From: Escherichia phage Ec_Makalu_002
Length of the DNA stretch: 64,000 nt
Sequence record: MN709127.1
Strand: one strand, 5' to 3'
Part shown: piece by piece, positions 9,974-53,155 of the stretch
How positions within the stretch are numbered: position 1 is the first letter of the stretch
Layout of the letters: every line of letters begins with the position of its first letter
Program-made: the position numbers and the translations under genes
Notes under the pieces: model-generated
Told to the model about the DNA's origin: nothing
What the model saw: the letters and a program-made list of their open reading frames with translations, nothing else
Database searches by the model: none

Positions 9974-10044
9974 AATATAATCCTCACATCGTTCATTTGA
10001 TGCGGCTATTATAGGATAACCGCATTTTCATGTCAACTGTTTTT

Positions 10045-10642: not shown

Positions 10643-10649
10643 TTTGATT

Positions 10650-10715: not shown

Positions 10716-10729
10716 ACTTTTTTATGATT

Positions 10730-11050
10730 TTAGTGAATTAACTCTACACCAAAATGAGGCACAGAGAACGCATTACGAAACACATATTCACCATGTTTAG
10801 GAATCGCCCCTAACCGCTCTATTTCGCTCGCCATCACGATAAACTGTTTATCTGGTGCATATGCCTTGTGTGCTTCAACAACGCACGGAAAACGCGTTTT
10901 AGAGAGTTCTGGATAGTTTTCTGAATCCAGAAGGACAATGAATACCCTGTTACATTGATTGTAGAATCCTGTTTTTGATTTCATCAAGTTTTCTTCTATG
11001 TTCAAGTCGTGCAATCTTCTTTTCATGATTTCGTTGGTTCTTGTCTTCAC
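10730..11050 (-). CDS. hypothetical protein, tandem paralog (true start probably MKSKTG)
   Basis: VFIVLLDSENYPE resembles MYLLLNDSGYTF of the upstream ORF. Confidence 0.4.
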   Translation of the reverse strand: MKTRTNEIMKRRLHDLNIEENLMKSKTGFYNQCNRVFIVLLDSENYPELSKTRFPCVVEAHKAYAPDKQFIVMASEIERLGAIPKHGEYVFRNAFSVPHFGVELIH

Positions 11051-11288
11051 AGTTTACCCACTCAACAAGATCTTTACCTAACTCAAAAGCCCATTCTCGG
11101 TCTTGCTTTACGTTTTGTAGGTATGGACTTTCCGACACTCGACGAAGTGATGTTGTCGTAACAAGAATGATCCCAGGAATGGTCGGATGCTCCTTACCAT
11201 ATACAATCGGACGGGAATCCCTTTCGACACCTTGTAAGAAGGTGTATCCTGAATCATTCAGCAACAAATACATTTTCGGTTCGTTCAT
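10950..11288 (-). CDS. hypothetical protein, tandem paralog
   Basis: 112 aa; overlaps the downstream paralog in a different frame. Confidence 0.4.
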   Translation of the reverse strand: MNEPKMYLLLNDSGYTFLQGVERDSRPIVYGKEHPTIPGIILVTTTSLRRVSESPYLQNVKQDREWAFELGKDLVEWVNCEDKNQRNHEKKIARLEHRRKLDEIKNRILQSM

Positions 11289-11554
11289 TACAGCTTCCTC
11301 AACCAGTTATTAAAGCGAGCAAACAATGATGCTTTTCGTGCTTCTTCTTCGGCTTTGCACGCACGCAAACCACTGAAACACCATTCATAATCATCACTGA
11401 AACATGATTCAACAGGAACACCCGCATTTCGTAGTTCTCTGGTCGTTATCATAAATCCTTGACATAATGGGCGACCTTCAACAATGATAGGAAGTTTAAC
11501 TTTTTTCATGAAAGTATACCCAGCACGGTCAATAATTTCAATTTTAATTTTCAT
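11288..11554 (-). CDS. hypothetical protein
   Basis: 88 aa ORF. Confidence 0.4.
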   Translation of the reverse strand: MKIKIEIIDRAGYTFMKKVKLPIIVEGRPLCQGFMITTRELRNAGVPVESCFSDDYEWCFSGLRACKAEEEARKASLFARFNNWLRKL

Positions 11555-11799
11555 TTTACGTTATCTCCATAGATCTTTCCATCAATATCAATTTCACCAG
11601 CGCGAACATCTAGGATAAGATGCGGTAGGTGTATGTAGTTTTCCCACCCTACGCGCTTCATTTCTTCTACGGTAACGTAAGCCCACCCGTTCGCTGTAAT
11701 AAAGTCTACTTCAACCTTGAGAGGAAAGCAAGACTTTTCTATGTCTTCGAATCCGACAATATGTTTTGTTGTTGAATATGGAATATATCCGGTGATCAT
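11551..11799 (-). CDS. hypothetical protein
   Basis: 82 aa ORF. Confidence 0.4.
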   Translation of the reverse strand: MITGYIPYSTTKHIVGFEDIEKSCFPLKVEVDFITANGWAYVTVEEMKRVGWENYIHLPHLILDVRAGEIDIDGKIYGDNVK

Positions 11800-12230
11800 T
11801 TTGTGATCTCCTTATACTCAACACACCATAAGCGGGTAGCCCATGATAAACGCTCATAACGCTGGCAGAAATCGGACCATAGATATTGTGCACCGTTCGG
11901 CATAGTTGAAATATGCGTTTTCTCTCCAACTTTCACGAAAGAAGTGTTCGATTTTGTGATCTCGACCGGAGTATATCCGAAAGCGGGTTCCAAGCCAACA
12001 TCTGAACTAAATGCCAATTTAACAGAATTTGTTTTTCTAACCGCTGTCCGGTTTCCTTCTGGGTATAGCACAGCAGGTTTAGCGCCTAAGCGGATAAACT
12101 CACTATTTTTAATAAACAGAATATCATGATAACCGTCATATTCCGACACTTCCATAGTAACAGGAAAATCGACATGTTCTAAACCTGGTAGATCTCGCAT
12201 ATCATAAAATGTAGCAATCAACTTTTTCAT
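11796..12230 (-). CDS. hypothetical protein, paralog of 12241-12486
   Basis: C-terminal VEITKSNTSFVKVGEKTHISTM...YLWSDFCQRYERLSWA matches the neighbouring 81 aa ORF. Confidence 0.5.
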   Translation of the reverse strand: MKKLIATFYDMRDLPGLEHVDFPVTMEVSEYDGYHDILFIKNSEFIRLGAKPAVLYPEGNRTAVRKTNSVKLAFSSDVGLEPAFGYTPVEITKSNTSFVKVGEKTHISTMPNGAQYLWSDFCQRYERLSWATRLWCVEYKEITK

Positions 12231-12240
12231 CTTGTATTCC

Positions 12241-12486
12241 TCACTCTTCTGTAATTACTTCATATTCAATTTTCCACACATCAATCGCCCAGCTTAAAAG
12301 CTCATACGATTTACAGAAAGATGACCAAATATACTGTTTTCCGTGCATCGTTGTTATGTGTGTATGCTCGCCAACTTCAACGAAAGACATATTTGACTTT
12401 GTGATAACTATAGGAATACGACCGAAAGGAGGCGGTATTACTGATTCGTTGGTCTTCATTCTATATTCCTCACTCTTCTGTTTCAT
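12241..12486 (-). CDS. hypothetical protein, short paralog of 11796-12230
   Basis: VITKSNMSFVEVGEHTHITTMHGKQYIWSSFCKSYELLSWA. Confidence 0.45.
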   Translation of the reverse strand: MKQKSEEYRMKTNESVIPPPFGRIPIVITKSNMSFVEVGEHTHITTMHGKQYIWSSFCKSYELLSWAIDVWKIEYEVITEE

Positions 12487-12706
12487 TTCTTTTATATGGT
12501 ACTATAACAGGATTAAGACAGCAAGCACCAATTACGTTATGAGCACCACAATTTAAGCATTTATAATCATGGAACTTGTTAAGGAATCGACCGAACTCAT
12601 AACCGACTAACGCCGCGTGCACTTGAGTCTCGATCTCATCCATATCAGCCAATGTTTTAACCTTCATAATATAATCCTCAAATGGTAGTTTTGCGAAGAT
12701 GGTCAT
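12470..12706 (-). CDS. hypothetical Cys-rich small protein
   Basis: 78 aa; CLNCGAHNVIGACC. Confidence 0.4.
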   Translation of the reverse strand: MTIFAKLPFEDYIMKVKTLADMDEIETQVHAALVGYEFGRFLNKFHDYKCLNCGAHNVIGACCLNPVIVPYKRNETEE

Positions 12707-12968
12707 TACATGCTTTTAATGCATCAGTCGCTGTGTCATAACGAGTATTATCATAGCACCAGTAACCATCTATCAACTGATAAATTAATCCATCCTTTTT
12801 AGCTTCGATGAAAGACAATTCTTTGAAAGTTTCTACTTTCTTTGCTGATAATCCACGATCACGGCGCTTATAGAGTTTAGCTAAAATGCGTTCAGCTTGT
12901 TCCTCTTTATCACCAGACAGATCCCAAATAATGTTGCGGATATGTTTGATTAATTGTTCAGTGGTCAT
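12678..12968 (-). CDS. hypothetical protein
   Basis: 96 aa ORF with promoter/leader cassette upstream (12960-13030). Confidence 0.4.
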   Translation of the reverse strand: MTTEQLIKHIRNIIWDLSGDKEEQAERILAKLYKRRDRGLSAKKVETFKELSFIEAKKDGLIYQLIDGYWCYDNTRYDTATDALKACNDHLRKTTI

Positions 12969-13069
12969 CTTTGATTCTCCTTAGTTGGTATGTGTGCATT
13001 ATAGCACTATGATTTTCATTGTCAACAACTAAAAACAAAAAAGGCTACCCCGAAGGATAGCCCATAAAA

Positions 13070-13849
13070 TTACACGCGAGCACCATAGATCGTGCCTACT
13101 TTATCCCAGCGAGGGGCATTGCCAGTAACAGCCTTACCAGCCGCCCCGCCATTATATTCCGATCCCTGTCCACGGATATTACATTTACCACCAGCACCAC
13201 CAGCATCACCACCGTTACCGCCATTATATACACCGTTGACAGACCCTTTACCTGGCGCGGAAATAGTACCAGCAGTAGCACCCCGTTCCATATTAGCAGA
13301 CCCGCCAGCAGCACCAAACGGACGACCACCGCCACCACCAAAGGTTAATTTCATTTGTGACATAGGAGACCAGTATCCGCCGCCACCGCCGCCACCGCCA
13401 CCGCAAATAGCGCCGTTATTTGTGATGCGTAAGCGTGTGCCTATACCGTTGTTAATTGCATTACCACCAGCACCACCAGCGGAGTTATTGCCACCATTAC
13501 CACCACGCCCCCAAACATGAACACCGGGGTTAATGATCAATGTTACATATTCGTTTGTTAACGAGCTAGGGAAGTCAAGACAAGGAACGCCAGTAGAATG
13601 GGAAACAATATTACCTGTGATAGTAATTACTACCGGAGTAGATCCTTGTGCTTTCATCCAGTTAATAAGAGTGTCTTTATTGTAAGAGTTACTAGCACCA
13701 ATGCTATAATGAATCTCTTTAGAGCGTCCGACCATCGCTGACATATACGCCGGACGGCCTAAGCGTACAGCTTGCATTGCGGCGCTCATCCACCGTTGAC
13801 CTGTTTCTGATACGGCAGATGAACCGACCCACCCAGAAGATATTGCCAT
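13070..13849 (-). CDS. glycine-rich protein (poly-Gly and GGxGG repeats in C-terminal two thirds)
   Basis: 259 aa; N-terminal ~110 aa of ordinary composition, then runs such as GGGGGGGGGYW and GGNGGDAGGAGG; terminator-like hairpin downstream (13030-13066). Confidence 0.55.
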   Translation of the reverse strand: MAISSGWVGSSAVSETGQRWMSAAMQAVRLGRPAYMSAMVGRSKEIHYSIGASNSYNKDTLINWMKAQGSTPVVITITGNIVSHSTGVPCLDFPSSLTNEYVTLIINPGVHVWGRGGNGGNNSAGGAGGNAINNGIGTRLRITNNGAICGGGGGGGGGYWSPMSQMKLTFGGGGGRPFGAAGGSANMERGATAGTISAPGKGSVNGVYNGGNGGDAGGAGGKCNIRGQGSEYNGGAAGKAVTGNAPRWDKVGTIYGARV

Positions 13850-13906
13850 AAAATTTCCTCACAAGAAAAGCCCCAATTAAGGGGCATTGTTGATTGATAA
13901 TATTAC

Positions 13907-14128
13907 TTAGATGATCTCAGCTTCACCATTCAGGAAGAAAGACCAAGTTTTGTTTGGGTAACGACGCGCCCATGATTCGGCGGTTTTAACACCAGCTTCG
14001 AACAATTGACGGCTGGTTACTTTAGCCATACCATCTTCGATGGCAACGTTTTCAATAATCATCGGGTACTTAGCGCCACGCATGAAACCGAAGCCAGCGG
14101 AAGATTTGATAATTTTAACAGTTGCCAT
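13907..14128 (-). CDS. hypothetical protein
   Basis: 73 aa; promoter/leader cassette upstream (14130-14210). Confidence 0.4.
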   Translation of the reverse strand: MATVKIIKSSAGFGFMRGAKYPMIIENVAIEDGMAKVTSRQLFEAGVKTAESWARRYPNKTWSFFLNGEAEII

Positions 14129-14217
14129 TTTTGATTCTCCTAGAAAGTGTATCTCGTTTCGATGGGTGTATTATGCAATAACACCGGATCGCTGTCAACA
14201 CTTTCTAAGAAAATTTT

Positions 14218-14502
14218 TTAAATTAATCGAAGATAGCCCAGAATTTCAGCACCTTTAGCCAGACCTAAAACTTCCCAATCAAGGTCGCCGTAGTCATAAT
14301 TTGCAACCATCAGTTCACCATTTTTCATGCAGCAATCATGAGAGAAAATTTGCCCTGCATAAACTACGATAGTAATAAACTTTCCTGATTCTGGCGGTGT
14401 GGAAGACAAAGCGACCATATGACCATTCAGCTTAGTCACCAGTGACGGAACAATAAAATTCGGGCTTACCTGAATGCCGTTAAATTCGTTTGTGTCTTTC
14501 AT
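14218..14502 (-). CDS. hypothetical protein
   Basis: 94 aa ORF. Confidence 0.4.
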   Translation of the reverse strand: MKDTNEFNGIQVSPNFIVPSLVTKLNGHMVALSSTPPESGKFITIVVYAGQIFSHDCCMKNGELMVANYDYGDLDWEVLGLAKGAEILGYLRLI

Positions 14503-14849
14503 GCCATACCCCTTAAAACACTAATAGCATAATCATGCTGGTTATTCATAATATCAATTGCATTGTGATAACGAGCTAAACCATCAAGGATAAATTCTTG
14601 TTTATCTTGTTTCAGCTTAGTATCACGCGCAGCCATAAGAGCATCGAGAACAGGTCCAAAGTGATTGTCCAATTCATCTTCGGTTGCAATGTTTCCTATT
14701 GCCTCGTCGATCCGTGATTCTAATGCTTGCTTTTCGTTGATCACTTGCTGGGTATATTCCAGAACATCAAGAATATCGCGGGTAACGTCGCCATGATAAG
14801 GTATTCCCGCATGAAGATGATCAATTAATCGCTGAATATCAATGTTCAA
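14499..14849 (-). CDS. hypothetical protein
   Basis: 116 aa ORF, start overlaps upstream stop. Confidence 0.45.
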   Translation of the reverse strand: MNIDIQRLIDHLHAGIPYHGDVTRDILDVLEYTQQVINEKQALESRIDEAIGNIATEDELDNHFGPVLDALMAARDTKLKQDKQEFILDGLARYHNAIDIMNNQHDYAISVLRGMA

Positions 14850-15184
14850 TTGTAGCCCTCCTCTGAAAGTACATCCCAGATAATCGGATCAAGGTGCATT
14901 AAATTCCACATAATAGAGTCATAACTACCGGAGCCATGAGTAAAAATTACATCACACTGGCGATAGGTCTTATGAAAATCGGTTGCACTCTTTGCATGAA
15001 TAGGCATATCGTCACCAGAAAGCACCAGACATTTAAGAATCATGATTCTGTTAGCGGATGGCGCGCCTTTAGTTGCTTCGGCGTATCTTTCGATGATCCG
15101 TTTCGCCTTTTCTTCGGTGATACGTCCAGACCAAATCCGGTTTCGGTATTGATTCATAATAATTTCAATCACATCATTTTGCAT
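14846..15184 (-). CDS. hypothetical protein
   Basis: 112 aa ORF. Confidence 0.45.
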   Translation of the reverse strand: MQNDVIEIIMNQYRNRIWSGRITEEKAKRIIERYAEATKGAPSANRIMILKCLVLSGDDMPIHAKSATDFHKTYRQCDVIFTHGSGSYDSIMWNLMHLDPIIWDVLSEEGYN

Positions 15185-15383
15185 TCTTTACAGTCTCCAT
15201 AATTGTTTTGTAAGCCAGTTTAAGATGATCACCGAAAAACTTTGCGGTGTTACCTTTCGGATCGCGAAGCATGGTTTCTACGATCTCATCGGCAGTAACA
15301 ATTTCTCCTTTCTTTGCTGCATGTTCTACCATATACTTCAAAGTTTCTTCGGAAGCAAGTGCTGCGGCTACTGGATTAATCAT
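15174..15383 (-). CDS. hypothetical protein
   Basis: 69 aa ORF with promoter/leader cassette upstream. Confidence 0.4.
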   Translation of the reverse strand: MINPVAAALASEETLKYMVEHAAKKGEIVTADEIVETMLRDPKGNTAKFFGDHLKLAYKTIMETVKNAK

Positions 15384-15445
15384 TTTGATTCTCCTTTGTT
15401 GTCGATGTGTGCATTATGCTATACTATATTCCGGTTGTCAACACC

Positions 15446-15478
15446 TAAAAACGAAAAAGCCACCCTTTCGGATGGCTT
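15446..15478 (-). terminator. rho-independent terminator
   Basis: Hairpin agccatcc-gaaa-gggtggct followed by UUUUUCGUUUUU on the minus-strand transcript. Confidence 0.6.
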
Positions 15479-15711
15479 TTGATTATATTTTATTCACGTC
15501 CATTTGTATAGTAGTGTTTGAATCGACCTTTGCTAAACTAGTTAAACATAGTAACCAATTCACCATCCCTTTCCAATGATAACCCTTCCTCGTCTTAGAC
15601 GGGTCTTCCGATTCGGCAGTAATTGAACACGCGAAAGTATGAGGAAGCCAAATAGTTGTGTTAATGCTAGTATTCTTTTACTTCTGGTATGCATCCACCC
15701 TGTGACTAACA

Positions 15712-16209
15712 TTAAGCTAGTCGAGTGAGTTTATAAATTGTTTTAAAGCATAGAATTTTGATATCGTCTAAAACGCTCTGTAACGAGCTATCAACATCAT
15801 TATAAATCTCACTAGCCATTTGCGTTAACTCTTGCAAATAGGCAATTTCGCTAATCTCCTTGCGGACGACCAACGTTGGCTGATAACGACCAGTGATCCC
15901 AATATTGGTTTCAGTGAAATTATCAACCAATTCTTGCATTTCAAGATAGAACTCTTCTAGAGCCTTATGTTTTGCATAAGATCCAGGACCAGTTACCCCA
16001 AAATGCGCAGAATGCATATAAGTAACACTCATCAGACATTCACCGATAAAGCGGTCAACTTTATTAGCTTTCCCATCTTCGGACGTCTTTCGAAAATCAC
16101 TGAATTTCATGTTCTCGATTCTCCACATTATGCAGCATAACAAATTGGTTTGCGGCATATTCCCCCATAATAAAACACTGCTTAGAATCCATACATTTAC
16201 TACGAGCAT
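15712..16209 (-). CDS. hypothetical protein (probable true start MKFSDF near 16110); position matches T4 rI.-1
   Basis: ORF-track N-terminus overlaps the upstream gene; internal Met preceded by GAGAATCGAGAAC. Confidence 0.45.
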   Translation of the reverse strand: MLVVNVWILSSVLLWGNMPQTNLLCCIMWRIENMKFSDFRKTSEDGKANKVDRFIGECLMSVTYMHSAHFGVTGPGSYAKHKALEEFYLEMQELVDNFTETNIGITGRYQPTLVVRKEISEIAYLQELTQMASEIYNDVDSSLQSVLDDIKILCFKTIYKLTRLA

Positions 16210-16399
16210 ACATCTTCATAATATGGGCATGAAACTTCTGGCTGGTTTCAATGGAAGGTGATATTTTGTTTACATATACTATCATTGCACCGTCGAAATA
16301 ATCAGTAAAGTCACCAGTTGGATCATATTGATCAGCACTGACACTTCCGACCGCAGTCAAGCATATTGCCGCTGTTAGAGTTTTACGAATAAATGACAT
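16097..16399 (-). CDS. rI: secreted small protein, RI (lysis-inhibition antiholin)-like
   Basis: N-terminal signal/anchor MSFIRKTLTAAICLTAVGSVSA; Cys pair in periplasmic domain; sits directly downstream of tk as rI does in T4. Confidence 0.4.
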   Translation of the reverse strand: MSFIRKTLTAAICLTAVGSVSADQYDPTGDFTDYFDGAMIVYVNKISPSIETSQKFHAHIMKMYARSKCMDSKQCFIMGEYAANQFVMLHNVENREHEIQ

Positions 16400-16467
16400 A
16401 AGTCATTCCCCCAGATTTAAAATATTCAGTTATATTTATAATCTGGGGCTTTATTTATGATTAACTC

Positions 16468-17064
16468 TTAGTTGGTAGTGCCATCAATAAAATGTTTACG
16501 GCACACAGAGACATATTTATCCTCTGCACCAACTTCTATTTGAGCACCATCGCGAATAACATTACCCTCTTTATCTACACGAAGGACCATTGTTGCTTTC
16601 TTGCCACAATGACAAATACCCTTCATTTCGACCAGTTTATCAGCAAATGCCATCAATGCAGCAGATCCTTCAAATAGATTGCCCTGAAAGTCAGTGCGAA
16701 GACCATAACACAGGACAGGGATATTTGCATCATCAACAAGCGCACACAAGCCTAAAACATGCTCTTTAGTCATAAATTGGGCTTCGTCTACAAAAACTGC
16801 ATCTGGACGCCATCGATCCGGTCTACGCTTACCTAACGATTCACGATAAACCAAGTCGAAAAGATCATCCGATTCAGTGAAGGTGATCGCTGGAGCACTT
16901 AGGCCAATTCGGGAAACAACTTCACTTTCTGAATCTCGATTATCAATCGCTGGCTTAAGAATTAATACTCGCATATCACGTTCGGTATAGTTATAAGCAC
17001 TTTGTAACAGGGAAGTTGATTTGCCAGCGTTCATAGATGCATAGTAGAAATATAATTGCGCCAT
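16468..17064 (-). CDS. tk: thymidine kinase
   Basis: 198 aa; P-loop SMNAGKST; zinc-ribbon cysteines CHCGKKA...C near C-terminus. Confidence 0.9.
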   Translation of the reverse strand: MAQLYFYYASMNAGKSTSLLQSAYNYTERDMRVLILKPAIDNRDSESEVVSRIGLSAPAITFTESDDLFDLVYRESLGKRRPDRWRPDAVFVDEAQFMTKEHVLGLCALVDDANIPVLCYGLRTDFQGNLFEGSAALMAFADKLVEMKGICHCGKKATMVLRVDKEGNVIRDGAQIEVGAEDKYVSVCRKHFIDGTTN

Positions 17065-17357
17065 TAATTAATCTCCAAAAATCCAGCAAGACCTAAGCCG
17101 ATATAAGTCCAAATACAAAGTAAAAAGAAGCAAACACCCATAACAAAGATAAATCCGCGTAGTGTCTTTGGATAACCTACCCAATATTCCCGACCATCTT
17201 CTAACCGGATCAGCTTATTTCCTTGAGAGTCCATATCAATTACAACATGTTTATTTCTGGATTGTAAAAGATATTGCTTGACAATCTCAATACCCGCCAT
17301 AATAACAATAACGAAATTGAAAGTCCACATAACAAGGTTAATGATAGTCTCAAACAT
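17064..17357 (-). CDS. membrane protein (two or more TM helices)
   Basis: 97 aa; hydrophobic N- and C-terminal segments. Confidence 0.45.
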   Translation of the reverse strand: MFETIINLVMWTFNFVIVIMAGIEIVKQYLLQSRNKHVVIDMDSQGNKLIRLEDGREYWVGYPKTLRGFIFVMGVCFFLLCIWTYIGLGLAGFLEIN

Positions 17358-17592
17358 TTTCTATCACCTCCACCCAATCCGGTGTTTCTTGAAACACTCC
17401 TTCGCCTTCATGGTGAATACATCCTTTGTTGCTGCAATACATCCACCAATCCCACATTCCCCACGGTAAACGCTGCATATCGTCGTTACAGCAAGTGAAG
17501 ATGATAGGCCAACCACATCTAACACATCGGCAGTTTTCCTTCATGTGAGCGGTATTAGGCTTCTTCATAGATGACTCCAATATAATCGACAT
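17350..17592 (-). CDS. Cys-rich small protein (zinc-finger-like)
   Basis: 80 aa; CRCVRCGW...CCND...CSNKGC. Confidence 0.4.
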   Translation of the reverse strand: MSIILESSMKKPNTAHMKENCRCVRCGWPIIFTCCNDDMQRLPWGMWDWWMYCSNKGCIHHEGEGVFQETPDWVEVIENV

Positions 17593-17795
17593 TTACATGT
17601 AGGGCAATGCGGTTCTTTAATATAATACCCGTCTGTCTTTGGAACACTAACAGGAGCGGTTTTTATATTGTATTCAGTGAAACAACGAAAACAAGTTACG
17701 TTTTCTACAGACTGACGTTTAACCCAATCGCCGGAATATAGATCATTTTTATTTGCCATATTCAACCACCACAATATTGATATCTGGAGTAGCAA
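17565..17795 (-). CDS. Cys-rich small protein (zinc-ribbon-like)
   Basis: 76 aa; CFRC...CPTCKC. Confidence 0.4.
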   Translation of the reverse strand: MLLQISILWWLNMANKNDLYSGDWVKRQSVENVTCFRCFTEYNIKTAPVSVPKTDGYYIKEPHCPTCKCRLYWSHL

Positions 17796-26220: not shown

Positions 26221-26243
26221 ACTTTTTTAAAAAAATTTTAGGC

Positions 26244-26271
26244 AATAAAAAAGCCACTCCGAAGAGTGGCT
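26244..26271 (-). terminator. rho-independent terminator
   Basis: Perfect hairpin agccactc-ttcg-gagtggct followed by UUUUUUAUU on the minus strand. Confidence 0.65.
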
Positions 26272-26419
26272 TATAGGGAAGGTAGCGAATCTTCCTTGTC
26301 TCCAACCTGCTAGCGGCCTAGCAAGTGAATGCTTTAGCGTACCGGATCGCCCATACGCTGCAATAAATGCGGCTAGGTGACGTCCAAATCATTCTAACCG
26401 CGCTGTCTTTAGTTCACTA
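26272..26419 (-). ncRNA. candidate structured small RNA / structured 3' UTR (non-coding, several hairpins, ends at terminator)
   Basis: ~150 nt without ORF; minus-strand hairpins gcgguuag...cuagccgc, agcgua...uacgcu, ugcuag-gccg-cuagca, ggaag...cuucc. Confidence 0.25.
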
Positions 26420-26638
26420 TTATTTATATCGCTTTCTCTCGCGACGTTTTTGATCTTCTTCCTTGATAGAGTTAAATGCATCAAAAAGACACATGACACT
26501 AATAATAAACATAACCGTATTTTCTACGATATCCCACGGCTTCGCATCAGTACAGATCCCCCAAACGGTAAGAAATGCAAATAAGGCAGAAGAGATCACA
26601 AGCATGATACTTGCTAAGACATAAAAGGTCATCTTCAT
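26420..26638 (-). CDS. small membrane protein
   Basis: 72 aa; hydrophobic helices; basic C-terminus RRERKRYK. Confidence 0.4.
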   Translation of the reverse strand: MKMTFYVLASIMLVISSALFAFLTVWGICTDAKPWDIVENTVMFIISVMCLFDAFNSIKEEDQKRRERKRYK

Positions 26639-26829
26639 GGTTTTACCTCAATTCTTCGATATTCATCACACATCCATGCAGTAAGCAAGAATCCCAACAC
26701 ATAAGCAACAAAATACGTTAATGCTTCTTCTGGTTCGGTGCTATGCGCCATCATCAGACCAGCGAGAAAGGTCTTAACAATTACATTTAAAATAATTAGC
26801 CACGCAAATAATTTCATCGTTTGCCCCAT
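26635..26829 (-). CDS. small membrane protein
   Basis: 64 aa, hydrophobic. Confidence 0.4.
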   Translation of the reverse strand: MGQTMKLFAWLIILNVIVKTFLAGLMMAHSTEPEEALTYFVAYVLGFLLTAWMCDEYRRIEVKP

Positions 26830-27053
26830 TTCGGTCGAGTCTTCTCAAACTTATACATTCCGTGACAATCTCGAATCATCCACGTAACAAGAGCACCACT
26901 CAACACCGACAGCACACAGAAGAAGTAAAACGGTCCGGTTGCATTATCAACATGAGCAAGCCATGTAAAGAATACACATGCTAAGAATGTAAAGAACATC
27001 ATAAAACACAAGAAAGCAAAATATTTTATGCTACTCATATCGCCACCATACAA
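26814..27053 (-). CDS. small membrane protein
   Basis: 79 aa, hydrophobic. Confidence 0.4.
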   Translation of the reverse strand: MYGGDMSSIKYFAFLCFMMFFTFLACVFFTWLAHVDNATGPFYFFCVLSVLSGALVTWMIRDCHGMYKFEKTRPKWGKR

Positions 27054-27141
27054 CAGATCATAAGAAACCCAAACGCAATAAGAATTGCATCAAATTTAGT
27101 GAACTCCGGTCCACCTATCAACATCATTCGTTCCTGTTCAG

Positions 27142-27339
27142 TCATAGATCACAGATCCATCTAAAAGCACCACATACAGCGATCAGGAGTGTAGGAACAC
27201 TTGAGAAGAAAACCAATGTACAAAAATCATCTAGTGTAATACCGGAATAACTACCGACTGCAATCACACCGATGATCAGACACAGAAAGAAAACAAATGC
27301 AATCAGAAACAAAGTATTGCTAAACAGTTTAGTGATCAT
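27142..27339 (-). CDS. small membrane protein
   Basis: 65 aa, hydrophobic. Confidence 0.4.
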   Translation of the reverse strand: MITKLFSNTLFLIAFVFFLCLIIGVIAVGSYSGITLDDFCTLVFFSSVPTLLIAVCGAFRWICDL

Positions 27340-27533
27340 TAGACACCCCCACGACGGTCAATTTCAAAAACTTTCTTATCACAGACAAAGCAGGTCACTA
27401 CAGCCTCATTGACTTCCGCAAATTGTTGTGTTACCCACTTAAGGTCAGAGCGAAACAATGTTTTGTTAATAACAAATGTTTTACCTTTCTTATCCTTACC
27501 CATAAATTTTGCTTTAACCATATCCAATTCCAT
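27339..27533 (-). CDS. hypothetical small protein
   Basis: 64 aa; CFVCDKK. Confidence 0.4.
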   Translation of the reverse strand: MELDMVKAKFMGKDKKGKTFVINKTLFRSDLKWVTQQFAEVNEAVVTCFVCDKKVFEIDRRGGV

Positions 27534-27542
27534 ATTATCACC

Positions 27543-27701
27543 TTATTTGCTAATCGCTAAACCTAATCCGAAGAGAGCACCAGACGCTACAGTATACCCG
27601 AAAGTTTCAAAGGCAGTCAAGATATCCAACCCACCAGCTAACAGAGTTGCAGTAAACAGAGTACCAGCTACGAACATAAAAGTTTTACCGATAAATTTCA
27701 T
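27543..27701 (-). CDS. small hydrophobic peptide (52 aa), below ORF-track size cut-off
   Basis: Hand translation MKFIGKTFMFVAGTLFTATLLAGGLDILTAFETFGYTVASGALFGLGLAISK; ATG follows GGAGAATCAAA RBS and promoter cassette (27700-27775). Confidence 0.4.
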   Translation of the reverse strand: MKFIGKTFMFVAGTLFTATLLAGGLDILTAFETFGYTVASGALFGLGLAISK

Positions 27702-27768
27702 TTTGATTCTCCTTTCGTTTGTTTGTTGGGGGTATCTTACTACCCCCGTTTCATGTTGTCAACTGTTT

Positions 27769-28146
27769 TTAAGAAAATTTTACTTCGTCTACAATGTCTT
27801 TCATGACATTGATTTCCATTCCGGTCAGAACACGTTGGAACATGTGCTGCACATACGCTTTCAGGTATTCATTTGATGGCTTGCTATCAAAAGTCTTTTT
27901 AGTGTAGTAGTCATCACCGAAAGCTACTGTAATTACATTTTCGTCGTCGTTCCAGGCAATATAAGCAAATTTGCCGTTATCCCAGAATCGAGCACTAATT
28001 GCTACTTTCGTTGAATCGAATCCTACTTCGCTGTGAGATTCAAGAACTACTTGCGTGCCAGTTTCTTTATGAATGTAGTAGCGGGATACTAAGTCAAAGT
28101 TACGGGTGTAGTGACATTCGAATTTATCTTTAAACATCATCATCAT
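27769..28146 (-). CDS. hypothetical protein
   Basis: 125 aa; promoter/leader cassette upstream (28140-28215). Confidence 0.45.
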   Translation of the reverse strand: MMMMFKDKFECHYTRNFDLVSRYYIHKETGTQVVLESHSEVGFDSTKVAISARFWDNGKFAYIAWNDDENVITVAFGDDYYTKKTFDSKPSNEYLKAYVQHMFQRVLTGMEINVMKDIVDEVKFS

Positions 28147-28219
28147 TTTTTGATTCTCCTAAGTGTGTTTCGTTTCGATGTGTGCATTATGCTATAGTCG
28201 TTTATGGTTGTCAACACAT

Positions 28220-30757: not shown

Positions 30758-31579
30758 TTATGCATCCTTCCAAACTTTCCTTGCGTCGTATTTCTTGCCT
30801 TTTGACATAAACTGATATGTAGGCATATAGATAATATTGCTCCAGTCTTTCGGGCTAATCTCAACAAGTTTTGTTTTAATGTGTCCCGGCAAGTATGCTT
30901 TGATCATGTGATCACTACCACGCATACCTTTTACATCGCTCCATTTGATTTTTAAGCGTGTTTTATTGCTCAAGGTAGGCGTAGATGCATATTGCTTTAA
31001 AAGTGCTTCCAGAAACTGCTGACGGGCTTTAGGCGTTACATAGTGTAAGTTAAGACCCAGCATTACAGTATTACCCGCCTTTGTCTTAGAATCACCCAGA
31101 CAAATGATCAGCGGGAAAACATCCCAATATGGCAAAGTGTCTTTATACTTCGCATCATACATAAAAGTATAGATTCGCCCTACTTGCGGTTTTACAATCT
31201 GGTGTCCCTTTATTCCCGCTTTTATTGTTTTGGTAAACCATTCCTGTGATTTTTCTTTAGGACGACTCTTTGATACAGCACGCATAGACGCACGAAAATC
31301 ATTAATCATCATCATTGCGCGTTGCTGCTTATTGAGACCCTTTGCACCTTTCCCTTTTAGTTTTTCAACTTCTATTGCTGTTTTAATTTCGCTGGCATAA
31401 CGAGACATACTTTTAGTGAAAGTCGCATAGGCTATTCCCTTAGAATCTGCAAATGCTTTAGCTGTCATGCCTTTGGCTTTTGCTTTCGCAAATTCTACAC
31501 CCAATTCGACCCACTGTTTAGACTTTCGCTTTTGGGGAGACGGCTTTTCGTCTTCTGTGATTATTTCAAATACGCTCAT
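30758..31579 (-). CDS. 2: DNA end protector protein gp2 (start at internal Met MSVFEII, ~273 aa)
   Basis: ORF track gives 30758-31711; internal ATG near 31579 follows GAGGATAATATT RBS; resulting size matches T4 gp2; synteny. Confidence 0.7.
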   Translation of the reverse strand: MSVFEIITEDEKPSPQKRKSKQWVELGVEFAKAKAKGMTAKAFADSKGIAYATFTKSMSRYASEIKTAIEVEKLKGKGAKGLNKQQRAMMMINDFRASMRAVSKSRPKEKSQEWFTKTIKAGIKGHQIVKPQVGRIYTFMYDAKYKDTLPYWDVFPLIICLGDSKTKAGNTVMLGLNLHYVTPKARQQFLEALLKQYASTPTLSNKTRLKIKWSDVKGMRGSDHMIKAYLPGHIKTKLVEISPKDWSNIIYMPTYQFMSKGKKYDARKVWKDA

Positions 31580-31613
31580 AATATTATCCTCTATGTTTAT
31601 GTATGTTACACAC

Positions 31614-31642
31614 TTGACAATCCTCTTTGCTATTGCTAAAAT
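31614..31642 (+). promoter_or_regulatory. sigma70-like promoter for HNH endonuclease gene
   Basis: TTGACA-N17-TAAAAT upstream of RBS AGGAG and ATG at 31706. Confidence 0.5.
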
Positions 31643-31705
31643 GCAGACGAAAATAAACAGCGATACTTGTTGATAAATATCATTATACCATAGGAGTAAC
31701 CTTAG

Positions 31706-32728
31706 ATGCAAGATATTAAGAACAAAATTTTGATGCAGTTTCCGAATGCAGATATCAAGTATTTAGAAAAGTATCTAGAAATTTGTGCAAACCCAGATAA
31801 GGATGGGGAATTAGAGAGGCATCATATTCTACCAAAATCAATTTGGAAGGAATATGAAGACCTTAAAATTCATGATTTTAATGCTGTTCACTTGAACACC
31901 GTTCGTCATATGATGGCACACTACTATTTCAGTAAAGCAACAAATTCCATTTGGAAGTCTGTTGTTATGATGTTTAATACCAGAATTGATATTATGAAGG
32001 AATTGCCAGAAGATATTGTGTTGAAACTTGCTGGTATATCAGAAGAGGCAAAGCGAAAACATGTATACACGGAAGAATCTAGACTGAAAATGTCGGAATC
32101 ACAAAAACGTTTCATGGCTTCTCTTGATGAAGAAGAATTAAAACGTCGCCATAAGAAAAGAACTGATTCCGTTAAAGAACATTTTAGAAACTTGAGCGAT
32201 GAAGAACGAGAAAGAAAGTATAAAGAACGTGGCAAGAAAATATCAAAGGCGTTAAGTAATAGATCAGAGGAAAAACTTAAATTACGAAGAGAAAGGCTTC
32301 TACAAACTATAAACTCAAAGTCAGACGAAGAAAAACAAAGAATCGCCAAACTACTTTCAGATTCACAAAAACCGAAAGAAACATGGGGAAAATTTGATGA
32401 GTTATATGCATTATGGATTGATCTGAATATGCCTGGTCAATATGTATTCAAGCGCGAGGCCATTAAACGTGGATACCCAGATAGGTCATATGATTACATC
32501 GTTAAAGAAATGAAAAATAAGTACATAAAGGAGAATGGAAACGACATAATAAAATTAAATCCCAGAAAAAATTCTGGTGTCTGGGTATATTATGACGAAA
32601 TATATAAGCTGTGGAAAGAAAATGGTATGCCTAGCGATAGAAAAACAAGAAAAATAGCGGTCGAGAATGGGTATCCCGACCAATGCTATCAAACTATAGT
32701 AAAAGACTTTAAGAACTCACTTATTTAA
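31706..32728 (+). CDS. free-standing HNH homing endonuclease (Mob-like)
   Basis: 340 aa; ELERHHILPKSIW...N...H HNH core; Lys/Glu-rich linker; duplicated C-terminal GYPD(R/Q)xY DNA-binding-like repeats. Confidence 0.7.
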   Translation: MQDIKNKILMQFPNADIKYLEKYLEICANPDKDGELERHHILPKSIWKEYEDLKIHDFNAVHLNTVRHMMAHYYFSKATNSIWKSVVMMFNTRIDIMKELPEDIVLKLAGISEEAKRKHVYTEESRLKMSESQKRFMASLDEEELKRRHKKRTDSVKEHFRNLSDEERERKYKERGKKISKALSNRSEEKLKLRRERLLQTINSKSDEEKQRIAKLLSDSQKPKETWGKFDELYALWIDLNMPGQYVFKREAIKRGYPDRSYDYIVKEMKNKYIKENGNDIIKLNPRKNSGVWVYYDEIYKLWKENGMPSDRKTRKIAVENGYPDQCYQTIVKDFKNSLI

Positions 32729-33190
32729 ACCTTTAAAACCGAACACTTTTTTTAATGTGTGTTCGGTTATGATTTTAAATTCCATATTATGTTTTTTACA
32801 CAATGCTACTGCCGCTGCCCACTTTTCGGTATTTTTCGTCCACGTCCAAGCCTCCATCATATAACGCTGCTTTGTTTTAGTCGTTAATCGCTTTGGCTTT
32901 TCTGGTGGTCTAGTCTCTTTGGCTGGCTTAATTTCCCATAAATGCTCTTTTCCATCATCAAACTTAACATAAACATCAACAAAATATCTGTGACGCTTAC
33001 CGTCTGTTGATGAATTGTAAGGAATTACAACGGTCTCAGATCCCCATTTAACCACATGAGGATTACGGTCACACCATTTAAAAACATGCAATTCCCAGCT
33101 TGAACGGTATGTGATTTTCCGTATATCCCCTTTATACTTTTCCTTATTCTCAGGAACATACTTGCCCTTATAAGTGTTAGATCCTCCCAT
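32717..33190 (-). CDS. 4: head completion protein gp4-like
   Basis: 157 aa; synteny (last minus-strand gene before late gene 53). Confidence 0.55.
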   Translation of the reverse strand: MGGSNTYKGKYVPENKEKYKGDIRKITYRSSWELHVFKWCDRNPHVVKWGSETVVIPYNSSTDGKRHRYFVDVYVKFDDGKEHLWEIKPAKETRPPEKPKRLTTKTKQRYMMEAWTWTKNTEKWAAAVALCKKHNMEFKIITEHTLKKVFGFKGLNK

Positions 33191-50576: not shown

Positions 50577-51509
50577 ATGTCAGGATATGTAACCAATAAC
50601 CCAAGAGAATTAAAAGACGCTATTCTGCGTCGTTTAGGCGCACCAGTAATTAACGTAGAAGTCACAGAAGACCAGATTTACGATTGTATTCAGAGAGCAC
50701 TAGAACTCTATGGGGAATATCATTTCGATGGTGTGAATAAAGGATATAAAGTATTTCGTGTTAGTGCAGAGCAAGCGCAACATGGGGTATTTGATTTAAG
50801 CGATTCTGGAGTATTTGCAGTAACTAAAATAATTCGAACAAACGTAGGTAGCGCGGCTACGATGGATGGCACTGCCGTTTATCCGTGGTTTACCGACTTT
50901 CTGTTGGGTTTAGCTGGTGTAAATGGCGGTTTAGGATCTGGATGTAGTAAATTTTATGGTCCAAATGCAATGGGCGGTGATCTAGGATATTTCGAACAGC
51001 TTATGAGCTATCGAGCCACTATGCAAAATATGCTTAATCCACTGCCAGACTATTGGTATAATAGCGCAAACGGACAACTTAAGATTACAGGAAACTTCCG
51101 AGAAGGTGATCTCATTGTTGTTGAATTATATGTTAAAAGCTATGTAGACGTTCCTGATATGATCGGCGCGGTTGCTGGTTATGCTCATGCTGGAGGATGT
51201 TCTACCGCTGGCGGGATTAGCGCCGTTTATGATAATCCAACTGCTGGTTTAAGCGGGATTGTTGCTGGCATGGGACCGATCAGTGAGAACAAGCAGGGCG
51301 CATATAATAACCGTTGGGTTAAAGACATGGCAACCGCTTTCACTAAGGAGGTGTGGGGGTCCATCATGGCTAAACATCAAGGTCTGCAATTACCAGGTGG
51401 TGTCACTGTTGATGGTATCCGAATCATTGAAGAAGCACGCGCCGACATTGAGAAATTGCGACAAGAACTACTTGACTTAGATCCACCATTTGGTATACTA
51501 ATGATATAA
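50577..51509 (+). CDS. 13: neck protein gp13
   Basis: 310 aa (T4 309); synteny. Confidence 0.8.
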
Positions 51510-51562: not shown

Positions 51563-52378
51563 ATGGAACATTATGTATACAAAATAACCAACAAAATAAA
51601 CGATAAGATTTATGTCGGTGTTCGGTCTTGTGATGGATTAGCCGAAGACGATACAAAATACATGGGAAGTGGAAAAATAATAAAACAAGCTATTAAACAT
51701 CATGGATTAGAAAATTTCACCAAAGAGATATTGTCAAAATTTGATAGCAGAGAAGATGCGGATAAAGAAGAGTCAAGGATTGTTACGGTTGATTTTGTCA
51801 AGAGAGAAGACACGTATAATATAGCAGAAGGCGGTGGAACTGTTTGTATGTGGAAGGTTTCTGATGAAGCAAAGATAGAAGAAATGAGAAAAAAGATCTC
51901 AGAGAAAAATACTGGAAGAAAACATACTAAAGATACAAGACAAAAGATGTCCGCATCTCAAAAGGGAAGGAAGCATACGGAAGAAACAAAAGAAAAGATG
52001 AGGCAAAATAACTTAGGAAAAGTTATTGCAGAAGAGACAAAAGAAAAGTTAAGGATGATTAATTTAGGAAAAAGACACACAGAAGAAACGCGAAGAAAAA
52101 TGTCTGATTCACATAAGGGTCTATCCTTATCCGATGAGGTGAAGGATAAGATAAGACAAAAACACACAGGACGTGTTTTTACTAAAGAATGGAGAGAAAG
52201 AATTAGCAAATCTAGAATCGGAATAACTAGCACTAGATCAAGAAGAATAAGCATCAACGGAGTGATATACAATAGCATAGGAGAAGCTGTTATAAAATTA
52301 AACGTTAAGAGAGGATTGATTGTCGGAAGACTTAAATCAAATACCGATAAAAACAAAAATTATTTCTTCGTAGATTAA
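51563..52378 (+). CDS. free-standing GIY-YIG homing endonuclease (Seg-like)
   Basis: 271 aa; N-terminal YVYKITNKINDKIYVGV GIY-YIG motif; repeated KGxKHTEETKEKM NUMOD3-like units. Confidence 0.75.
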   Translation: MEHYVYKITNKINDKIYVGVRSCDGLAEDDTKYMGSGKIIKQAIKHHGLENFTKEILSKFDSREDADKEESRIVTVDFVKREDTYNIAEGGGTVCMWKVSDEAKIEEMRKKISEKNTGRKHTKDTRQKMSASQKGRKHTEETKEKMRQNNLGKVIAEETKEKLRMINLGKRHTEETRRKMSDSHKGLSLSDEVKDKIRQKHTGRVFTKEWRERISKSRIGITSTRSRRISINGVIYNSIGEAVIKLNVKRGLIVGRLKSNTDKNKNYFFVD

Positions 52379-52414: not shown

Positions 52415-53155
52415 ATGTTTAACAACACTCTTTTTGCTCGCCTTGAATCGCAAAAGGATTATGAGAATACACGACAAACAGAGATTCTCAATCCTTATGT
52501 GAACTTTCACAAATATACAAATACTCAGACGTTAGCCGACGTTATGGTCGCCGAAGCTATTCAGATGCGAGGTGTAGAATTATATTACATCCCTCGTGAA
52601 TTTGTCAAACCAGATATGATCTTTGGTGAGGATGTTCAAAGCAAATTTACTAAAGCATGGAAATTTGCGGCTTATATTAACTCATTTGATGGGTATGAAG
52701 GAGCGGGTAATTTCTTCTCTAGTTTCGGGTATCAAGCTAATGATGAATTAACCATAACCATAAATCCAAATTTATTCAAACATCAAGTAGATAACCAAGA
52801 GCCTAAATCCGGTGATTTATTTTACATTCCTATGAGCAATGATTTATTTGAAATCTCATATGTAGAGCCATATCAGCCGTTTTTTCAGGCTGGCAAAAAT
52901 GCCATGCGTAAAATTATTGCAGAGAAATTCGTGTATAGCGGTGAGGAATTGCGACCAGAATTACAACGCAATGAGGGAATTAATGTTGATGAGTTTGCGG
53001 ATCTGGATCTTGCACCGATCACTAATCTGGACGGGTTAACAGATATCAACTTAGATCAGTACAAAGAAGATAAGCAATTCAGAAGCGAAGGACAAGATTT
53101 TATTGACCCATTTGACCCAATTAATGGCACTGGTTCACCTTTTGCTAATTTTTGA
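52415..53155 (+). CDS. 14: neck protein gp14
   Basis: 246 aa (T4 256); synteny. Confidence 0.75.

What the first reader, a model, noticed from the sequence alone, without database searches (positions are those of the whole stretch)
31706..32728. HNH homing endonuclease with duplicated C-terminal DNA-binding repeats, on the opposite strand between genes 2 and 4, with its own sigma70 promoter
An HNH core (ELERHHILPKSIW...) is followed by a Lys/Glu-rich linker and two copies of a ~35 aa GYPD(R/Q)xY-containing module. It is transcribed against the flanking genes from a TTGACA-N17-TAAAAT promoter. Genes 2 and 4 are adjacent in T4, so this is a Mob-like selfish insertion.
Basis: partly seen in the sequence, partly recalled or inferred. 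Interest (0 to 1): 0.5.

Follow-up and report, generated by a model that had tools for sequence, protein, structure and literature searches.

The report
MobD-type homing endonuclease gene insertion
This is a selfish "homing endonuclease" gene of the known T4 MobD type, wedged between two head genes of an RB49-like coliphage; it brought a foreign piece of the neighbouring gene with it, which makes it a clean but ordinary example of how such genes spread.

Summary
The ORF at 31706..32728 (+, 340 aa) is real. It lies antiparallel between gene 2 (30758..31579, -) and gene 4 (32717..33190, -) of a Krischvirus (RB49-like) genome. In RB49 the two genes are 11 bp apart; here a ~1.12-kb insert fills that spacer. 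Only 2 of 58 related phage records carry the insert.

The "Lys/Glu linker" is five degenerate NUMOD3-like helices. The duplicated C-terminal unit is real (z = 18) but is about 46-54 aa long. It is absent from Pfam and occurs in 1-3 copies in relatives, including GIY-YIG enzymes.

All carriers share a foreign 375-bp tract of gene 4, about 22% diverged. Its closest relative is a metagenomic phage that has a related endonuclease beside gene 4. The cassette sits in different Krischvirus backbones, as expected for homing with co-conversion.

Verdict: reader supported; new member of a known kind; modest interest.

The parts
31595..32716 (.). Inserted DNA (~1.12 kb) replacing the 11-bp gene 4/gene 2 spacer of insert-free Krischviruses. 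It has no target-site duplication and no terminal inverted repeats.
   Evidence: blastn against RB49: window 29200-31594 aligns to RB49 locus 1-2395, and 32730-34800 to 2405-4475. No flanking repeats were found.
31614..31642 (+). Sigma-70-type (phage early) promoter: TTGACA, 17 nt, TAAAAT, with a TGn extended -10.
   Evidence: Such near-consensus sites are 7-fold enriched in the window. The hexamers are unchanged in 7 of the 8 other copies examined.
31692..31696 (+). Shine-Dalgarno AGGAG, 9 nt before the ATG.
   Evidence: Sequence. The 5' UTR has no significant structure that would hide it (z +0.23).
31706..32728 (+). Endonuclease ORF, 340 aa plus stop codon.
   Evidence: It is stop-free in all 8 other copies compared.
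31748..31960 (+). HNH (beta-beta-alpha-metal) nuclease domain, aa ~15-85, with motif residues H39 H40 N59 H68 H72.
32057..32368 (+). Lys/Glu-rich linker: five helices, each opening with an S/T-x-E-E cap. These are degenerate NUMOD3-like repeats.
32366..32527 (+). C-terminal module, copy 1 (aa 221-274): W..FDELY.LW...MPG...F...AI..GYPD..Y..IV.
   Evidence: Internal repeat, z = 18. Module HMM hit at aa 225-270, 1e-18. Aligns to the T4 MobD C-terminus at E 4e-8.
32561..32725 (+). C-terminal module, copy 2 (aa 286-340).
   Evidence: aa 292-336, 3e-23. Aligns to the T4 MobD C-terminus at E 5e-4.
32717..33091 (-). Foreign tract of gene 4 (codons ~34-158). It is co-inherited with the ORF and about 22% diverged from the allele of insert-free Krischviruses.
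   Evidence: 79-83 mismatches per 362 nt against every insert-free genome, but 1-2 per 375 against every carrier. 70 codons differ from RB49, 49 of them synonymous. The tract is 91.7% nt and 100% aa identical to gene 4 of metagenomic contig L018, while the first 99 nt of gene 4 are 98% RB49-like.
30758..31579 (-). Gene 2 (DNA end protector). It is now separated from gene 4 by the insert, and its Shine-Dalgarno sequence is retained at the left junction.
32717..33190 (-). Gene 4 (head completion), a chimera: RB49-like for codons 1-33, foreign for the rest.
32737..32768 (+). 10-bp hairpin followed by AUGAUUUUAAAUU, starting 9 nt after the ORF's stop codon. It is a possible terminator of the endonuclease transcript and lies within the last codons of gene 4.
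   Evidence: dG -15 kcal/mol, z -3.3, 0 of 200 shuffles. Its stem codons are partly present in insert-free genomes too, so it is not specific to the insert.

Best explanation
The ORF encodes an intact free-standing homing endonuclease of the T4 MobD family.

Anatomy. An N-terminal HNH (beta-beta-alpha-metal) nuclease domain is tethered through five NUMOD3-like helices to two tandem ~46-aa three-helix modules. These are inferred to bind DNA.

Proposed mechanism. The gene is transcribed early by unmodified host RNA polymerase from its own sigma-70 promoter, antisense to the late gene 4 -> gene 2 unit. In a mixed infection the enzyme nicks or cuts the insert-free allele of a co-infecting Krischvirus. 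The most likely target is the 3' two-thirds of gene 4, or else the intact gene 4/gene 2 junction. Recombination-dependent repair then copies the endonuclease gene from the carrier genome, together with the adjoining 375-bp foreign tract of gene 4. The carrier is immune to its own enzyme because that tract is about 22% diverged and the junction is interrupted.

Shown here: gene anatomy, family membership, precise intergenic insertion, sporadic distribution, the linked foreign tract, and presence of the cassette in different backbones.

Inferred, not shown: nuclease activity, nick versus double-strand break, the position of the target, the DNA-binding role of the modules, and promoter use.
For: Family and fold:
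- PHROG 655 'homing endonuclease' 6e-15 and phrog_12434 HNH 4e-6.
- 4492 relatives at E<=1e-3. Of 77 aligned, 39 carry Pfam NUMOD3 and 6 carry Pfam HNH.
- The family profile matches T4 MobD over residues 2-255 of 259 (prob 99.9%, E 1.1e-33).
- H39/H40/N59/H68/H72 are all present and conserved in 67-73 of 77 relatives.

Mobility:
- The insert fills the 11-bp spacer exactly.
- It is in 2 of 58 related phage records.
- In the 8 metagenomic contexts displayed (22 carrying contigs read) it has the same position.
- The foreign gene-4 tract is present in every carrier and absent from every insert-free genome.
- A relative of the tract's source, contig L018, has been identified.
- The window's flanks are identical to insert-free Makalu_003 (1/837 and 0/709 mismatches), yet its cassette is ~99% identical to that of carriers with 1.4-4% different flanks. 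The right-hand crossover lies within 25 bp of the tract end.

Integrity and expression:
- All 8 other copies compared are stop-free, with 3-6 synonymous against 2-3 non-synonymous codon differences.
- The promoter is near-consensus and conserved.

Module: it also occurs on GIY-YIG endonucleases, as expected for a portable DNA-targeting unit.

Precedent: T4 MobE nicks the neighbouring gene and is inherited with flanking polymorphisms (PMC2790892).
Against: - No activity has ever been shown for T4 MobD itself: activity 'ND', target unknown (PMC2988022, Table 1).
- Pfam HNH and NUMOD3 models are below threshold for this protein.
- No solved structure is detectable by sequence. Foldseek against the PDB found nothing.
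- Ordinary homologous recombination in T4-type phages could also move the cassette between backbones.
- All carriers share one identical tract boundary. This fits a single ancestral acquisition and does not by itself prove repeated homing.
- Too few substitutions exist between copies for a real selection test.
Confidence: 0.75

Rival explanations
1. Defunct or decaying endonuclease gene. The ORF descends from a MobD-type endonuclease but no longer cuts. It persists and moves between Krischvirus backbones only by the ordinary high-frequency recombination of T4-type phages, hitch-hiking with the foreign gene-4 tract.
For: - T4 MobA-D have no demonstrated activity, and defunct endonucleases such as I-TevIII persist in T4.
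- All carriers share one tract boundary, which is compatible with a single acquisition.
- The element is rare, in 2 of 58 records.
Against: - All five catalytic-motif residues are intact.
- All 8 other copies compared are stop-free, and synonymous changes are at least as frequent as non-synonymous ones, although 81% of random changes would be non-synonymous.
- The promoter and Shine-Dalgarno sequence are conserved.
- The cassette is ~99% identical across backbones that differ by 1.4-4%, pointing to recent transfer.
Confidence: 0.13
2. Promoter-plus-ORF cassette of the PeSL or 'moron' type. In this reading the insert was shuffled in by recombination between early-promoter/stem-loop elements, as described for RB49 and phi1. 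The encoded protein would then serve some accessory role rather than its own mobility.
For: - RB49-type phages shuffle ORFs flanked by sigma-70 promoter/stem-loop cassettes (PMC2839356).
- This insert brings its own near-consensus sigma-70 promoter.
Against: - The promoter region has no significant stem-loop (z -0.9) and no G-run/C-run stem.
- The empty site in RB49 is an 11-bp spacer with no such element.
- The site lies in the conserved late structural module, not in a hyperplastic region.
- The linked 375-bp foreign tract in gene 4 is not explained by exchange between promoter elements.
- The protein belongs to a nuclease family.
Confidence: 0.04
3. Domesticated nuclease or DNA-binding protein with a phage-beneficial role, for example excluding competing phages, acting on host DNA, or regulating the antisense late genes 4 and 2. 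Mobility would then be secondary.
For: - Early expression from its own promoter.
- Antisense placement across the 3' end of gene 4, with a 12-nt overlap.
- Homing endonucleases are known to cause marker exclusion between T-even phages.
Against: - Absence from 56 of 58 related phages shows it is dispensable.
- No feature distinguishes it from ordinary free-standing endonuclease genes.
- Marker exclusion is a consequence of homing, not an alternative to it.
Confidence: 0.05

Closest known systems
Phage T4 MobD (NP_049710, 259 aa; free-standing HNH endonuclease gene between nrdC.11 and mobD.1)
   Same: - The family profile matches MobD end to end (hhalign 99.9%, E 1.1e-33).
- The architecture is the same: N-terminal HH-N-H motif, central NUMOD3-type repeats, and a C-terminal W..YD.LY.LW...P...F......GYP..Y module. 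Both copies in this protein hit that module by BLASTP (4e-8 and 5e-4).
- Both are free-standing and intergenic.
   Different: - MobD has one C-terminal module; this protein has two.
- MobD is a promoterless cassette co-directional with its neighbours. This gene has its own sigma-70 promoter and is antiparallel to both neighbours.
- The insertion site differs (gene 4/gene 2 junction).
- Outside the C-terminal module, pairwise similarity is not detectable by BLASTP.
- MobD's activity and target are unknown.
Phage T4 MobE (free-standing HNH endonuclease between nrdA and nrdB)
   Same: It is the only Mob protein with demonstrated function. It nicks the adjacent gene (nrdB) of the endonuclease-less phage, and its inheritance depends on the HNH motif and is accompanied by flanking polymorphisms (PMC2790892). 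This is the model for the mechanism proposed here, in which the target lies in the neighbouring gene 4 and a linked tract is co-converted.
   Different: MobE is promoterless, co-transcribed with nrdA, and regulated by an internal terminator and an RBS hairpin. No RBS hairpin is present here. It occupies a different locus, and direct homology to MobE was not tested here.
Solved HNH nucleases (GVE2 phage HNH, PDB 5h0o) and intron-encoded I-HmuI-type enzymes with NUMOD extensions
   Different: There is no sequence-level match to any solved structure. This gene is free-standing, not intron-encoded. The C-terminal modules have no counterpart in Pfam or in the PDB by sequence.
Seg-type GIY-YIG free-standing endonucleases of T4-like phages
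   Same: They have the same lifestyle. Some GIY-YIG relatives (P0065, P0117, P0144, P0147) carry the same ~46-aa C-terminal module. The window itself has a Seg-like gene at 51563..52378.
   Different: The catalytic domain is different (GIY-YIG, not HNH).
PeSL promoter/stem-loop ORF cassettes of RB49 and phi1 (PMC2839356)
   Same: Sporadically present ORF that brings its own sigma-70 consensus early promoter, in the same phage genus.
   Different: There is no stem-loop component and no resident element at the empty site. The site lies in the conserved late module. The insert is accompanied by a foreign tract in the flanking gene.

Membership tests
HNH (beta-beta-alpha-metal) nuclease superfamily | Catalytic motif: His-His at the end of strand 1, a structural Asn, and His (x3) His on the following helix. 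| tested here: met
   H39 H40 ... N59 ... H68 x3 H72 are present and conserved in 73, 67, 69, 73 and 68 of 77 relatives. The correspondence to the colicin-type HH-N-H-x3-H pattern is from my own knowledge.
HNH (beta-beta-alpha-metal) nuclease superfamily | Two-strand hairpin plus helix fold matching a solved HNH nuclease. | tested here: met
HNH (beta-beta-alpha-metal) nuclease superfamily | Score above the curated threshold of a Pfam HNH model. | tested here: not met
   PF01844 scores 12.3 bits against a 21.4 cut-off (E 0.2); AHH scores E 0.17. Six of 77 relatives match PF01844 at E<=0.01; T4 MobD scores 18.1 bits, also below the cut-off.
HNH (beta-beta-alpha-metal) nuclease superfamily | Metal-dependent DNA nicking or cleavage. 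| not testable with these tools
   Needs a biochemical assay.
T4 MobD family of free-standing HNH endonucleases | Full-length homology to T4 MobD. | tested here: met
   hhalign of the 77-sequence family profile (query first) against T4 MobD: prob 99.9%, E 1.1e-33, MobD residues 2-255 of 259. Pairwise BLASTP detects only the C-terminal module.
T4 MobD family of free-standing HNH endonucleases | Architecture: HNH, then NUMOD3-type repeats, then the C-terminal W..DEL..LW...GYP module. | tested here: met
   This protein has a second copy of the module, as do 16 of 72 module-bearing proteins in the set.
Homing endonuclease gene (functional class) | Sporadic presence at an otherwise conserved, precisely defined site. 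| tested here: met
   Present in 2 of 58 related records. It fills the 11-bp gene 4/gene 2 spacer, and the 8 metagenomic contexts displayed (22 carrying contigs read) show the same position.
Homing endonuclease gene (functional class) | Co-conversion of flanking sequence with the gene. | tested here: met
   The 375-bp foreign gene-4 tract is perfectly linked to the insert. The cassette is found in a Makalu_003-like backbone with crossovers less than 354 bp to the left and less than 25 bp to the right.
Homing endonuclease gene (functional class) | Site-specific cleavage of the gene-less allele, and nuclease-dependent over-inheritance in mixed infection. | not testable with these tools
   Needs cleavage mapping and phage crosses.
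NUMOD3 DNA-binding repeats (PF07460) | Match to the Pfam model above threshold. | tested here: inconclusive
   This protein scores 11 bits against a 20.4 cut-off (E 0.44, first repeat only). 39 of 77 relatives match the model, and the MobD alignment places such repeats in the central region. AF2 gives five helices with about 20-23-aa periodicity.
PeSL regulatory cassette (RB49/phi1) | Sigma-70 consensus promoter combined with a stable stem-loop, with a homologous element at the recombination site. | tested here: not met
   The promoter is present. The stem-loop is absent (dG -9.2, z -0.9). There is no element in the RB49 spacer.
Transposable element / insertion sequence | Target-site duplication and terminal inverted repeats. 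| tested here: not met
   No direct or inverted repeats at the insert ends.

The most novel reading that the evidence does not exclude
The ~46-aa W-x3-DEL-x3-W ... F-x8-GYPD-x2-Y unit may be a not-yet-catalogued portable DNA-binding module. It is absent from Pfam and has no PDB relative by sequence. It is shared by HNH (Mob-type) and GIY-YIG (Seg-type) homing endonucleases and used in 1-3 tandem copies, perhaps to set target length. In addition, this endonuclease may travel as a two-part cassette with a cleavage-resistant 'immunity' allele of an essential head gene taken from another phage lineage. Its spread would then replace two-thirds of gene 4 across Krischviruses.
Probability: 0.45. Interest if true: 0.45.

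Novelty: new member of a known kind. Interest (0 to 1): 0.3.

Why it matters
It adds a well-delimited natural example of a free-standing HNH endonuclease cassette. The example comes with an identifiable empty site, a linked foreign tract in an essential head gene, a relative of the donor lineage, and the same cassette in different backbones.

That makes the long-uncharacterised MobD family directly testable: the substrate to try is the RB49 gene 4/gene 2 region. It also gives a natural one-module versus two-module comparison for an unannotated DNA-binding unit.

For phage-therapy genomics, the gene is labelled 'hypothetical protein' in both GenBank carriers. It can be annotated as a homing endonuclease, and gene 4 of these phages should be recognised as a chimera. 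None of this changes what is known about how such elements work.

Tried and rejected
Searches that found nothing useful:
- Pfam, direct scan: no domain at E<=1 for the whole protein; only sub-threshold HNH, AHH and NUMOD3 hits when the domains were scanned alone.
- NCBIfam: nothing meaningful.
- Sequence search of the PDB with the protein, the family profile and the module profile: nothing.
- IMG/VR scan for close relatives: none.
- No closer donor for the gene-4 tract among 50,697 phage records or in the protein database. Only contig L018 is close.

Hypotheses tested and rejected:
- RBS-sequestering hairpin, as in mobE or I-TevI: not present (z +0.23).
- PeSL stem-loop at the promoter: not present.
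- Late promoter TATAAATA on the minus strand inside the insert, which could re-start gene 2 transcription: none; only one-mismatch variants.
- Transposon-type repeats at the insert ends: none.

Not verifiable:
- Whether the window is phage Ec_Makalu_002. The accession I recalled (MN709127) is not in the collection, and the paper's supplement has no gene table.

Not to be used:
- One binomial p-value printed used illustrative rather than observed counts.

Full report
**What is at the coordinates.** The ORF at 31706..32728 (+) is real. It encodes 340 aa and starts at an ATG 9 nt after an AGGAG. It lies between two minus-strand genes:
- Gene 2, DNA end protector, 30758..31579 (PHROG 429, 2e-72).
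- Gene 4, head completion, 32717..33190 (PHROG 218, 1e-60; Pfam TnsA-like_N).

Gene 53 (Pfam Phage_gp53, 4e-59) and the ORF aligning to RB49 gene 5 follow on the plus strand. The last 12 nt of the ORF overlap the 3' end of gene 4 on the opposite strand.

The window is a Krischvirus (RB49-like T4-type coliphage). The region is 98.4% identical to phage PHB13 and 97.9% to phage Cognac.

**The insertion.** In RB49, gene 4 and gene 2 are 11 bp apart. In T4 they overlap by one base. Aligning the window to RB49 shows about 1.12 kb (31595..32716) in place of that spacer. The Shine-Dalgarno sequence and ATG of gene 2 are preserved at the left junction. There is no target-site duplication and there are no terminal inverted repeats.

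Distribution:
- Of 58 related phage records, only PHB13 and Cognac carry the insert. Both label the ORF 'hypothetical protein'.
- A 99%-identical protein was read on 22 metagenomic contigs; the 8 contexts displayed all show gene 2 | ORF | gene 4.

**The protein.** Pfam and NCBIfam give nothing at curated thresholds. Scanned alone, the N-terminal domain scores 12.3 bits on PF01844 (cut-off 21.4), and the first linker repeat scores 11 bits on NUMOD3 (cut-off 20.4). Other evidence is consistent:
- PHROG 655 'homing endonuclease' scores 6e-15 and phrog_12434 'HNH endonuclease' 4e-6.
- tblastn finds ~25%-identical genes annotated as MobD-like or homing endonucleases in many T4-like phages.
- An exhaustive profile search finds 4492 relatives at E<=1e-3. 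Among 77 aligned relatives, 39 carry Pfam NUMOD3 and 6 carry Pfam HNH.
- The family profile matches T4 MobD end to end (hhalign 99.9%, E 1.1e-33).
- The residues H39, H40, N59, H68 and H72 are all present and are conserved in 67-73 of 77 relatives. From my own knowledge, this is the HH-N-H-x3-H pattern of colicin-type HNH nucleases.

With the 77-sequence alignment, AlphaFold2 gives a confident model (mean pLDDT 91.8). It contains:
- a two-strand-plus-helix core at residues 36-79;
- five consecutive helices over residues 123-221, each opening with an S/T-x-E-E cap;
- two three-helix bundles, at 230-277 and 291-339.

**The duplicated module.** The two C-terminal copies (aa 221-274 and 286-339) align without gaps at z = 18 against shuffles. 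So the duplication is real, but the unit is about 46-54 aa rather than 35.
- A model of the unit finds it in 72 of 154 proteins (the 153 collected relatives plus the window protein): 56 with one copy, 13 with two, 3 with three.
- T4 MobD has one copy, and both copies here hit it.
- The unit also sits at the C-terminus of GIY-YIG proteins.
- It has no Pfam model and no PDB relative by sequence.

It therefore behaves like the known nuclease-associated modular DNA-binding domains, but is not one of the catalogued ones. The duplication is a common variation in the family, not a peculiarity of this gene.

**Evidence that the cassette moves.** Every insert-free Krischvirus differs from the window by 79-83 mismatches in the 362 nt of gene 4 next to the insert (about 22%). 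Divergence falls to 0-2% immediately beyond window position ~33091. Gene 2, on the other side, shows no such tract. Every carrier shares the divergent tract, with 1-2 mismatches in 375 nt.

Against RB49, 70 codons differ, 49 of them synonymously. The first 33 codons of gene 4 are RB49-like, so gene 4 is a chimera.

The only close relative of the tract is a 1.4-kb metagenomic contig, L018:
- Its gene 4 is 100% identical in protein and 91.7% in DNA over the tract.
- It is only 68% identical in DNA over the first 99 nt, where the window is 98% RB49-like.
- L018 carries a related endonuclease (31% identical, one C-terminal module) immediately upstream of that gene 4.

The window's flanks are essentially identical to the insert-free phage Makalu_003 (1/837 and 0/709 mismatches). 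Its cassette is about 99% identical to that of carriers whose flanks differ by 1.4-4%. Informative sites place the crossovers less than 354 bp left of the insert and within 25 bp of the right end of the tract.

The block 31595..33091 has thus been transferred as a unit between backbones. This is the pattern expected from break-induced gene conversion, in which homology resumes only beyond the diverged tract.

**Expression signals.**
- Promoter: TTGACA-N17-TAAAAT with a TGn extension sits at 31614-31642. Sites this close to consensus number 22 in the window against about 3 expected. Almost all the others lie on the minus strand of the early region. The hexamers are unchanged in seven of eight other copies. 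RB49-type phages are known to use sigma-70 consensus early promoters (PMC2839356).
- 5' UTR: no structure hides the ribosome-binding site.
- Possible terminator: a 10-bp hairpin with a U-rich tail follows the stop codon, inside the last codons of gene 4. Part of the stem exists in insert-free genomes too.
- Minus strand: the insert contains no TATAAATA late promoter. It does contain a strong hairpin plus U-run 35 nt after the gene 4 stop codon. Gene 2 presumably depends on read-through across the insert.

**Most likely mechanism and rivals.** The best reading (confidence 0.75) is an active MobD-family homing endonuclease made early in infection. It nicks or cuts the insert-free allele in or next to the 3' two-thirds of gene 4. 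It is then copied, together with the resistant gene-4 tract, by recombination-dependent repair. T4 MobE provides the precedent: it nicks the neighbouring gene and shows HNH-dependent inheritance with flanking polymorphisms (PMC2790892).

Nuclease activity, cut position and DNA binding by the modules are inferred, not shown.

Rivals:
- A defunct endonuclease carried by ordinary recombination (0.13). Against it: the intact motif, intact ORFs, conserved expression signals and recent transfer.
- A PeSL or moron-type cassette (0.04). Against it: no stem-loop, no resident element at the empty site, and the foreign tract.
- A domesticated function (0.05). Against it: absence from 56 of 58 relatives.

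**Comparison with what is known, and novelty.** This is a new member of the MobD family at a site not listed for T4 endonucleases (PMC2988022, Table 1). It differs from T4 MobD in three ways:
- it has its own promoter;
- it lies antiparallel inside a late operon;
- it carries a second C-terminal module.

A paper on Nepalese Krischviruses reports an 'HNH-type homing endonuclease (ORF131)' in phage Ec_Makalu_002 that is absent from Makalu_001 and Makalu_003 (PMC11611945). Given the Makalu_003-like flanks, the window may be that phage, and the gene may already be labelled as such. I could not verify this.

Interest is modest. The mechanism class is textbook. The useful parts are the clean natural co-conversion record and a concrete substrate for testing the uncharacterised MobD family and its unannotated module.

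Noticed in passing
window 51563..52378 (+): A second free-standing endonuclease gene: 271 aa with a SegE-type GIY-YIG domain, NUMOD3 repeats and an I-TevI-type DNA-binding domain. It lies between late structural ORFs 50577..51509 and 52415..53155. Its distribution among relatives was not examined.
   Followed up: partly
L002 1559-2587 (-) (phage Cognac) and L009 323-1351 (-) (phage pEJ01); window-equivalent 30700-30900: These two phages carry a different 342-aa ORF inserted just downstream of gene 2. It has a CapR homology domain (PF21817, 2e-14) and a weak zinc-ribbon hit. A locally diverged patch at the 3' end of gene 2 goes with it. Phage MIZ4 has the patch but no ORF. This may be another mobile cassette or its footprint.
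   Followed up: partly
L018 45-1013 and 1006-1428 (Logan SRR23924984): A 322-aa relative of the endonuclease (31% identical, one C-terminal module) sits immediately upstream of, and co-directional with, a gene 4. That gene 4's allele matches the foreign tract of the window (100% aa, 91.7% nt). Gene 4 is thus flanked by MobD-type genes at either end in two lineages. The contig ends inside gene 4, so what lies downstream is unknown.
   Followed up: partly
window 32658..32682 (-): A strong hairpin (dG -18.1, z -4.2) followed by a U-run on the late-transcript strand, 35 nt after the gene 4 stop codon and inside the insert. With no late promoter in the insert, it could reduce gene 2 expression in carriers.
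   Followed up: no
window 31688-31701: Four of the ten or so differences between the window's insert and the other copies cluster within 14 bp around the Shine-Dalgarno sequence: AGGAGT here against AGGAGG elsewhere. This may tune translation.
   Followed up: no
window 392..28214 (-): Seventeen of the 22 near-consensus sigma-70 promoter matches (>=11/12) in the window lie on the minus strand of the first 28 kb (20 are on the minus strand overall). This is consistent with the dense early-promoter (PeSL-type) organisation described for RB49 and phi1.
   Followed up: no
window 32717..33190 (-): Gene 4 (head completion protein) matches the Pfam TnsA-like endonuclease N-terminal domain at 5e-21. 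This is a fold relationship of the head-completion protein itself, unrelated to the inserted gene.
   Followed up: no
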